Shown one piece after another: positions 33,820 through 34,403 of a stretch of 64,000 bases of DNA. The translations under genes were made by a program, and so were the position numbers. Numbering within the stretch: position 1 is the first letter of the stretch; each line of letters starts with the position of its first letter. The notes under the pieces are model-generated. The model saw only the letters and a program-made list of their open reading frames with translations. It did not search any database and was not told where the DNA came from. Source of the stretch: Leucoraja erinacea (lineage: Eukaryota); contig NC_073384.1 of NCBI RefSeq assembly GCF_028641065.1, forward strand, positions 6,572,001-6,636,000. The letters run 5' to 3'.

Positions 33820-34260
33820 CTACTACATCGGTGAGACCAAGCGTAGGCTTGGCGATCGCTTCGCCGAACATCTCTGCTCGGTTCGCAAAAACCAACCTGA
33901 TCTCCCGGTGGCTCAGCACTTCAATTCCTCCTCCTATTCCGAATTCGACCTTTCTGTCCTGGGCCTCCTCCACGGCCAGAGTGAGGATCACCGGAAATTG
34001 GAGGAGCAGCACCTCAGTTTGGGCAGTTTGTACCCCAAGCGGTATGAACATTGACTTCTCTAATTTGAGGTAGTTCTTACTTTCTCCTCCCTTTCTCAGC
34101 TCTCCCTCAGCCCTCTGGCTCCTCCTCTTCCTGTTTTCTTCCCGTTTCCCCCCCCACCCTCACATCAGTCTGAAGAAGGGTTTGGGCCCGAATCGTTGCC
34201 TATTTCCTTCGCTCCATAGATGCTGCTGCACCCGCTGAGTTTCTACAGCATTTTTGTCTG
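33820..34260 (+). mobile_element. Penelope-like element 3' end: GIY-YIG endonuclease tail plus terminal repeat
   Basis: Translates YIGETKRRLGDRFAEHLCSVRKNQPDLPVAQHFNS...RKLEEQHL; followed by a pyrimidine tract and ctgaagaagggtttgggcccgaatcgtt at 34170. Confidence 0.9.
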
Positions 34261-34370
34261 CCAACCAGTATCCTTTTTTCTGCAGGAAGGAACTGCAGAT
34301 GTTGGTTTATACCGAAGATAGACCGAAAATGCTGGAGTAACTCAGAGAGTCATTAGCATCTCTGGATAAA

Positions 34371-34403
34371 GGTGACATTTCGGGTCGGAACCCTTCTTCA
34401 GAC
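34371..34403 (-). ncRNA. Minimal type I hammerhead-ribozyme-like motif in a Penelope terminal repeat (best-preserved copy found)
   Basis: Minus strand GU-CUGAAGA-A-GGG(UUCCGA)CCC-GAAA-UGUC-ACC: both conserved core boxes, stem II and a GUC cleavage triplet. Activity untested. Confidence 0.6.

What the first reader, a model, noticed from the sequence alone, without database searches (positions are those of the whole stretch)
34170..34403. Hammerhead-ribozyme consensus repeated through the window in Penelope terminal repeats
Seen: more than a dozen copies of one repeat share the consensus GU-CUGAAGA-A-GGGUC-UC-GACCC-GAAA-CGUC-ACC (+17567, +34170, +52442, +13561, +43118; minus ~34401, ~26249, ~41783, ~5174). 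At 34170 it directly follows a GIY-YIG coding tail. Known: CUGANGA/GAAA with a short stem II and a loop-less palindromic ACGU stem III is the minimal type I hammerhead described in Penelope-like elements, thought to cleave as a dimer; an extra A after A9 is a known tolerated variant. Most single copies here have core or CpG mutations. Inference: minus-strand copies are sense within SLX4IP pre-mRNA, so intact pairs could cleave the intron co-transcriptionally.
Basis: partly seen in the sequence, partly recalled or inferred. Interest (0 to 1): 0.7.

Follow-up and report, generated by a model that had tools for sequence, protein, structure and literature searches.

The report
Penelope stubs with short-armed hammerhead motif
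These repeats are mostly decayed end-pieces of a Penelope-type jumping gene, in what is likely a shark or ray, carrying a known tiny hammerhead-ribozyme motif with an unusually short arm; many copies start just before the motif rather than at its cut site, and they likely do not cut the host gene's intron.

Summary
The repeat is real: 42-44 copies in the window and 58,128 exact-core matches genome-wide (control 0). It is the minimal hammerhead motif in the pseudo-LTR of a Neptune-like Penelope retroelement. Full-length tandem copies with RT, Cys linker and GIY-YIG were found. This kind of motif was described in 2014, and the scan has noted it before in other shark/ray DNA (8 notes).

- Helix II is 4 bp with a tetraloop.
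- Helix I is only 2 bp (125 of 144 copies), against 3-6 bp in 48 of 66 unrelated relatives.
- The 34170 copy has a broken core.
- None of the 18 motif-spanning window copies is strictly intact.

SLX4IP does lie on the minus strand, but intron cleavage is unsupported. The best sense copy (34401) is predicted to be locked in one long hairpin with its neighbour.

Insertions pile up at the motif's 5' edge (50 of 109; pattern count 1,514) and not at the cut site (266, against 214 at a control position). The copied RNA was therefore likely mostly uncut. Cleavage is untested.

The parts
33821..34073 (+). 5'-truncated, frameshifted C-terminal GIY-YIG coding tail of a Neptune-like Penelope element; stop codon at 34071-34073
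   Evidence: translation; Pfam GIY-YIG E 0.059, below cut-off; about 90% identical to many genomic copies
34074..34167 (+). pyrimidine-rich 3' untranslated stretch of the pseudo-LTR, running into TCAGT (initiator-like, motif recalled; also resembles a splice acceptor)
   Evidence: sequence; diverges between subfamilies, mean identity 0.61
34168..34199 (+). minimal hammerhead motif with a broken core (A15.1 is T at 34193); antisense to SLX4IP
   Evidence: reads from other copies carry A at 34193
34200..34262 (+). conserved downstream part of the pseudo-LTR up to the first common 3' end (about +92 from C3)
34285..34371 (-). downstream part and 'tail' of a second stub facing the first tail-to-tail (boundaries approximate)
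34372..34403 (-). minimal hammerhead motif with core intact, 4-bp helix II, 15.2 decayed to U and 2-bp helix I; similarity begins 2 nt before C3; sense in an SLX4IP intron
17485..17671 (.). head-to-head inverted pair with a target-site duplication; plus copy (C3 17567) has the core but C11.1 is changed
26149..26323 (.). head-to-head inverted pair with a target-site duplication; minus copy (C3 26248) has the core but helix II is broken
41694..41787 (-). stub with core letters but 15.2 changed (AG); sense in SLX4IP
39716..39820 (-). stub with core, damaged helices I and II and a target-site duplication; sense in SLX4IP
43110..43224 (+). copy with CUGAGGA core, 11.1 and 15.2 changed
52434..52532 (+). 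copy with deletion in helix II and U16.1 changed
13553..13668 (+). copy with G12 decayed to A
5077..5178 (-). copy with G12 and U16.1 changed
34749..34838 (-). SLX4IP (UPF0492) coding exon (host context); others at about 29386-29553 and 4813-4914, candidate start exon 52963-52989

Best explanation
The repeat is the hammerhead-motif-bearing end (pseudo-LTR) of a Neptune-like Penelope retroelement, scattered as an estimated several hundred thousand mostly decayed stubs that likely do nothing at their present sites. Shown: full-length tandem elements of about 3.95 kb carry the motif at both ends; most TSD-defined insertions end about 92 or 127 nt after C3, have 14-17-bp target duplications, and often start 2-3 nt before the core. 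Inferred mechanism: the element's protein primes reverse transcription inside the RNA at the 'tail', 65-100 nt 3' of the cut site, so only RNA uncut at that hammerhead yields a motif-bearing copy. Many templates likely have their physical 5' end at TCAGT, probably a transcription start, which would explain both the pile-up and why only 2 bp of helix I exist. The ribozyme is predicted to be off by default (2-bp helix I, competing GAAGGG:CCUUC helix) and, if it cuts, likely does so only in the parent element's RNA with the protein's help.
For: Element identity: RT plus GIY-YIG, C-x4-C-x2-C linker, partial tandems with a motif at each end, best named relatives in Mobula, Chiloscyllium, Rhincodon and Hypanus at 65-73%. 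Neutral decay: CpG positions 0.70-0.73 conserved, other core and non-core positions alike at about 0.9. Constraint on master elements: motif identity 0.88 between 7 subfamily representatives against 0.61 upstream and 0.82 downstream; common variants fall at tolerated positions or keep pairing. 5' ends: 50 of 109 copies anchored downstream of the cut site start at -8..+6 and 5 of 109 at +25..+31; 8 against 0 among 51 TSD-defined hits in 694 kb; genome-wide matched patterns give 1,514 at -2, 266 at +28 and 214 at control +31. Repeated re-copying of the first bases is seen in some junctions (L220, L234; L521). Two priming sites and dispensable, protein-assisted cleavage are reported for the anole element. 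Folding: helix II probability 0.04-0.16 against 0.63-0.76 for the competing helix, 124 copies.
Against: No start site was mapped. A cap-derived extra G at -4 is not enriched (1,797 G against 2,011 A). Of 40 copies that include the ORF start, only 5 begin at -8..+2 (0 of the 30 closest to the query), 21 continue upstream and 14 start at +28..+149, so the -2 edge is not the only or main start of long templates. One TSD-flanked unit-length copy starts exactly at the predicted cut site (L448; about 9% by chance). The 109-copy sample comes mostly from the first 3 Mb of one contig and includes a few duplicates and both arms of some inverted pairs. The three count patterns differ in CpG content. Clade assignment rests on the linker, not on a tree.
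Confidence: 0.72

Rival explanations
1. The hammerheads cut the parent RNA at both ends, and the unit-length RNA is circularised or copied by an end-to-end jump, which builds the seamless partial tandems; stubs are a side product of a separate uncut RNA.
For: 21 of 40 ORF-start copies run seamlessly upstream through the motif, and one TSD-flanked full unit begins exactly at +28. The model was proposed by Cervera and De la Pena. It is compatible with the best explanation for stubs.
Against: No genome-wide excess of starts at +28 (266 against 214); only 2 of 30 inspected +28 starts are direct and TSD-flanked. Read-through RNA from existing tandems explains seamless copies equally well.
Confidence: 0.3
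2. The motif is a vestigial, non-cleaving hammerhead kept by the element as a promoter or protein-binding signal.
For: Helix I is 2 bp in 125 of 144 copies against 3 bp or more in 48 of 66 unrelated relatives. The half double-hammerhead scores +6.3 kcal/mol against -0.6 to +0.9 for 7 relatives. The competing helix dominates.
Against: The whole core, G10.1-C11.1 and the ACGU palindrome are kept across subfamilies, with pairing-neutral changes at 1.1 and 11.4. A 2-bp helix I variant is described in D. virilis.
Confidence: 0.3
3. The pyrimidine tract and CAG before the core are a 3' splice site, and splicing supplies a longer helix I arm, as described for D. virilis Penelope.
For: Pyrimidine-rich tract plus CAG directly before U2.1 in the subfamilies seen; precedent.
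Against: TSD-defined starts include element-derived G(-2) and A(-3), which lie inside the supposed intron. The donor-like sites I inspected by eye near the stop codon would not supply the GG needed to pair with ACC/GCC. None of the 15 joints shown (of 113) came from RNA reads.
Confidence: 0.12
4. One reading: sense copies in SLX4IP introns pair up and cleave the pre-mRNA co-transcriptionally.
For: SLX4IP is on the minus strand across at least 4.8-53 kb; 4 minus copies keep the core letters.
Against: None is strictly intact. The best copy is predicted to be sequestered in a long hairpin. The other three core-bearing sense copies are 5-8 kb away and damaged. Decay is neutral.
Confidence: 0.04

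Closest known systems
Minimal hammerheads (min-HHR) in pLTRs of metazoan Penelope-like elements (Cervera and De la Pena 2014, PMC4209133)
   Same: Type I layout, CUGAnGA/GAAA core, extra nucleotide between 9 and 10.1, G10.1-C11.1, palindromic 15.2-16.2 without loop 3, one motif per pLTR, mostly dispersed singles.
   Different: Helix I is 2 bp (4-5 bp in the S. mansoni families) and helix II is 4 bp (7-8 bp there). 58,128 exact-core copies against about 4,000 (coelacanth) and 9,000 (Xenopus) by their descriptor. No cartilaginous fish in the text parts or the one supplement file I could search.
D. virilis Penelope hammerhead variant (same paper; promoter and intron in PMC2377424)
   Same: 2-bp helix I; a pyrimidine tract plus CAG abuts helix I here as the intron end does there.
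   Different: No helix II bulge and no 2-nt helix III insertion here; no splicing evidence here; different clade.
Poseidon element PAc of Anolis (Frangieh et al. 2024, PMC11167929)
   Same: Two internal priming sites giving a 30-40-nt tail; RNA uncut at the hammerhead is the template.
   Different: There the ORF starts inside the hammerhead; here the ATG lies about 165 nt after C3, and the protein has a Cys linker.
Non-LTR retrozymes of animals (bioRxiv 10.64898/2026.07.22.740005)
   Same: Short non-coding pLTR-related sequences with hammerheads, thought to be moved by PLE proteins.
   Different: Retrozymes are tandem arrays; these stubs are dispersed singles or inverted pairs with 14-17-bp TSDs.

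Membership tests
PLE minimal hammerhead (min-HHR) | CUGAnGA and GAAA core with NUH triplet in the family majority | tested here: met
PLE minimal hammerhead (min-HHR) | unpaired nucleotide between A9 and helix II; G10.1-C11.1 pair | tested here: met
   A in 98 of 101; G-C in 78 of 101, G-U in 11
PLE minimal hammerhead (min-HHR) | palindromic 15.2-16.2 without loop 3 | tested here: met
   CG in 74 of 101; 20 more are CpG decay to CA or TG
PLE minimal hammerhead (min-HHR) | helix I of 4-5 bp as in the main described families | tested here: not met
   2 bp in 125 of 144 copies, 3 bp or more in 4; matches only the D. virilis variant, hence filed as a variant
PLE minimal hammerhead (min-HHR) | compensatory covariation in helices | tested here: inconclusive
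   only one-sided U-A/U-G changes within the family; two-sided changes in unrelated relatives sharing the core
PLE minimal hammerhead (min-HHR) | located in both pLTRs of a PLE | tested here: met
   L169-L172
PLE minimal hammerhead (min-HHR) | self-cleavage as dimer or with protein | not testable with these tools
   no excess of genomic starts at the cut site; needs a bench assay
EN+ Penelope-like element | RT followed by C-terminal GIY-YIG in one ORF | tested here: met
   RVT_1 E 5e-7; GIY-YIG E 0.005, below curated cut-off; translations
EN+ Penelope-like element | partial tandems (pLTR), inverted 5' copies, 30-40-nt optional tail | tested here: met
Neptune clade | Cys zinc-finger-like linker between RT and endonuclease (shared with Nematis) | tested here: met
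   C-x4-C-x2-C in the linker; clade feature
Neptune clade | phylogenetic placement of the RT with reference Neptune elements | not tested
   no named reference set at hand
Non-LTR retrozyme | head-to-tail tandem arrays of short hammerhead units | tested here: not met
   window copies are dispersed singles or inverted pairs
Rfam hammerhead families | match to a curated model | tested here: not met
   no hammerhead family among 18 hits at E<=1

The most novel reading that the evidence does not exclude
The element's RNA begins 2-3 nt before a hammerhead that is switched off by a 2-bp arm and a competing helix. The reverse transcriptase primes internally, runs to the RNA's 5' end, and then either finishes (a 95-130-nt stub that carries its own start site and can be copied again like a SINE) or jumps to the 3' part of the same RNA, which creates the pseudo-LTR. 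Seven of 40 ORF-start copies are such mini-tandems, and in four both pieces start within 7 nt of each other: a genomic fossil record of how Penelope terminal repeats form.
Probability: 0.3. Interest if true: 0.55.

Novelty: new variant of a known kind. Interest (0 to 1): 0.3.

Why it matters
What Penelope hammerheads do and how pseudo-LTRs form are open questions. A genome with tens of thousands of intact-core copies and young subfamilies lets insertion ends be read as a record of the RNA template. Here that record says motif-bearing templates were mostly uncut and often ended just before the core. For the host gene the finding is ordinary: intronic transposon debris.

Tried and rejected
1. 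Rfam scan: no hammerhead hit; the miRNA-family hits are the inverted pairs, all below gathering score.
2. Cap-G test at -4: no excess. In 30 inspected loci the G or A was mostly unexplained, TSD-derived or at an inversion. GG before the -2 start is common (51 of 100 listed, hand count), but 10 of 20 inspected were inversions and 3 of the 8 TSD-defined had extra pure G: a weak hint only.
3. RNA: no RNA holder listed as such. Reads laid on L169:2300-3700 show about 100-fold more depth from the motif onward, no read-start pile-up and no RNA joint among the 15 of 113 shown. This reflects many copies and fragmented libraries and says nothing on cleavage.
4. Reads on window 29200-35100 barely cover the SLX4IP exons (depth about 4 or less) and gave nothing locus-specific.
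5. Cleavage at the NUC just before AGU was considered by eye and rejected: no helix I is possible.
6. A Pol III box reading was considered from recalled consensus and rejected by eye.
7. Literature searches found no paper describing this motif in cartilaginous fish: Penelope+Neptune+skate+shark 0; hammerhead ribozyme+cartilaginous fish 1 irrelevant; Penelope+elasmobranch+transposable element 4, listings only; hammerhead+ribozyme+Chondrichthyes 7, listings only, of which the 2026 preprint reports tandem retrozymes in one chondrichthyan; one search found nothing on 5' ends by listing. The library lacks most subscription papers and Repbase/Dfam, and supplement file 1 of PMC4209133 could not be searched.
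8. Search of earlier findings by sequence gave nothing.

Full report
OBSERVATION. Profile searches give 44 and 42 hits in 64 kb. A pattern fixing CTGAnGA-A-GGG...CCC-GAAA-CGTH-RCC has 58,128 exact matches in the 2.19-Gb genome, evenly on both strands, with 0 for the control. Sixty evenly spaced 10-kb regions hold 209 hits, of which 101 span the motif, 42 keep the core and 20 also keep helix II, the 15.2-16.2 pair (G-U allowed) and 2 bp of helix I. Extrapolated, that is roughly 760,000 pieces and 70,000 intact motifs. Rfam has no hammerhead match.

THE ELEMENT. The 34170 copy lies 96 nt behind a frameshifted GIY-YIG tail. Walking upstream through the genome gave a young subfamily (mostly 96-99% between copies) with long open frames holding RT, a C-x4-C-x2-C linker and GIY-YIG. 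Four loci (L169-L172) are partial tandems with a unit of about 3.95 kb and one motif in each pseudo-LTR; the ATG lies about 165 nt after C3. The closest named proteins are from Mobula (73%), Chiloscyllium (69%), Rhincodon (67%) and Hypanus (65%), so the host is likely a cartilaginous fish. The linker points to Neptune or Nematis; no tree was built.

THE MOTIF. Core, extra A, G10.1-C11.1 and the loop-less ACGU palindrome match the min-HHR of Cervera and De la Pena. Helix II is best read as GGGU/RCCC with a CUCG or UUCG loop. The common variants are U-A or U-G at 10.4-11.4 (51 and 44 of 101) and at 2.1-1.1 (41 and 46 of 101), and C or U at 17. These keep pairing but are one-sided. Helix I stops after 2 bp: position 3 is A-C in 67 of 101, and 125 of 144 own-genome copies have exactly 2 bp. 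As a control, the same core was scanned in metagenome contigs (123 stretches returned, scan stopped at its limit, 80 listed, 66 distinct usable): 48 of 66 have 3-6 bp of freely covarying helix I. So the motif class is real and this family is a short-armed variant, like the D. virilis one. Folding of 124 natural copies gives helix II a probability of 0.04-0.16 and a competing helix, which buries G8-A9, 0.63-0.76. The half double-hammerhead scores +6.3 kcal/mol against -0.6 to +0.9 for 7 relatives. Between 7 subfamily representatives the motif is 0.88 identical, upstream 0.61 and downstream 0.82, which suggests constraint on master elements. Dispersed copies decay neutrally, CpGs first.

INSERTION ENDS. 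In 694 kb (the 60 regions, the window and three neighbouring stretches), 51 of 260 queried hits had a target duplication (13 in the unrelated-sequence control), 14-17 bp in 41 of 51. Their 3' ends cluster near +92 and +127; 8 start at the motif's 5' border and 0 at the cut site; head-to-head inversions are frequent, with junctions mostly in or next to the motif. Among 109 copies chosen by a pattern downstream of the cut site (138,904 matches genome-wide; sample mostly from the first 3 Mb of contig C1), 50 start at -8..+6 (mode -2/-3), 9 at -29..-11, 26 continue at least 30 nt upstream, 10 start at +7..+24, 5 at +25..+31 and 9 later. Matched genome-wide patterns give 1,514 starts at -2, 266 at the cut site and 214 at control +31. 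Of 30 inspected +28 starts, 15 were inversions, 3 internal deletions or mutants, 2 TSD-flanked and 10 unclassified. My inference: reverse transcription primes 65-100 nt 3' of the cut site on uncut RNA, as shown for the anole element, and many templates end physically at TCAGT, most simply a transcription start (initiator motif recalled; an internal Penelope promoter is reported). Against this: no cap-G excess at -4, and of 40 copies containing the ORF start only 5 begin at -8..+2, 21 run upstream and 14 start at +28..+149. One of those, L448, is a TSD-flanked full unit starting exactly at +28 (about 9% by chance). Seven of the 40 are mini-tandems, four with both pieces starting within 7 nt of each other, which would fit a jump back onto the same RNA.

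SLX4IP. UPF0492 exons lie on the minus strand at 34749-34838, about 29386-29553 and 4813-4914, with a candidate start exon at 52963-52989. Minus copies are therefore sense. Of 18 window copies spanning the motif, 7 keep the core (4 on the minus strand) and none is strictly intact; 34170 itself has A15.1 changed. The best sense copy (34401) folds with the facing copy into one hairpin of -108.8 kcal/mol, z -8.9, 0 of 200 shuffles as good. Published min-HHRs show no monomer activity and low dimer activity, or need the protein. RNA reads gave no locus-specific information. Intron cleavage is unlikely.

KNOWN VERSUS NEW. Known: min-HHRs in PLE pseudo-LTRs, tails, inversions and TSDs. Not found in my searches: a description for cartilaginous fish, or the pile-up of starts at the motif's 5' edge. 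The scan's own notes already report the family in other shark or ray DNA, several with the same edge; these are AI notes, not independent support. My measurements of the edge and the start-site idea came before that look-up.

Papers seen: PMC4209133, parts 1-2 of 4 and a term search of one of two supplement files; PMC11167929, parts 1-2 of 4; passages only of 10.1101/2021.04.23.441226, PMC2377424, PMC3846280 and 10.64898/2026.07.22.740005; the rest as search listings.

VERDICT. A real, very abundant, short-armed variant of a known motif. Host-gene effect unsupported; cleavage untested. Interest 0.3.

Noticed in passing
L452, L453, L454, L455, L457, L458, L460: Mini-tandem insertions of the form [start..+366 to +838][start..tail]; in four both pieces start within 7 nt of each other (twice at +47, twice near -7), suggesting a jump onto the same RNA.
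   Followed up: partly
L448:- (G000:C12 near 56.128 Mb): Unit-length element with a 12-bp TSD beginning exactly at the predicted cleavage site; single case among 40.
   Followed up: partly
window 15290-15453, 17485-17671, 20146-20325, 26149-26323, 30140-30331, 41270-41446, 55520-55681: Head-to-head inverted pairs, several centred on or near the helix II palindrome; some produce sub-threshold Rfam miRNA hits and would form long dsRNA in the pre-mRNA.
   Followed up: partly
L169:2300-2950 in run X22: Single-cell reads lie mostly on the minus strand over the endonuclease tail and 3' UTR (11 of 14 bins, about 3-14 fold); library orientation unknown, so sense or antisense cannot be told.
   Followed up: no
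L136:1593-2582 (+), just beyond the window end; window 58000-60000: 330-codon frame that I take from recall to be MKKS, head-to-head with SLX4IP; a CpG-rich, repetitive stretch at 58-60 kb may hold the shared promoter.
   Followed up: no
window 22477-23172 (-): 232-codon stop-free frame with an alanine run followed by Met; not identified.
   Followed up: no
window 3230-3952 (-) and 57043-57630 (+): Frames that look like LINE reverse-transcriptase remnants (recalled resemblance).
   Followed up: no
P0082: A Hypanus protein named 'divergent protein kinase domain 1C isoform X2' is 65% identical to this element's ORF, probably a gene model contaminated by the retroelement.
   Followed up: no
L295-L374: Metagenome contigs hold many unrelated min-HHR families with the same core and 3-6-bp helix I; a subgroup reads GUG-U or GUG-UU after the core and did not fit my helix I register.
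   Followed up: partly
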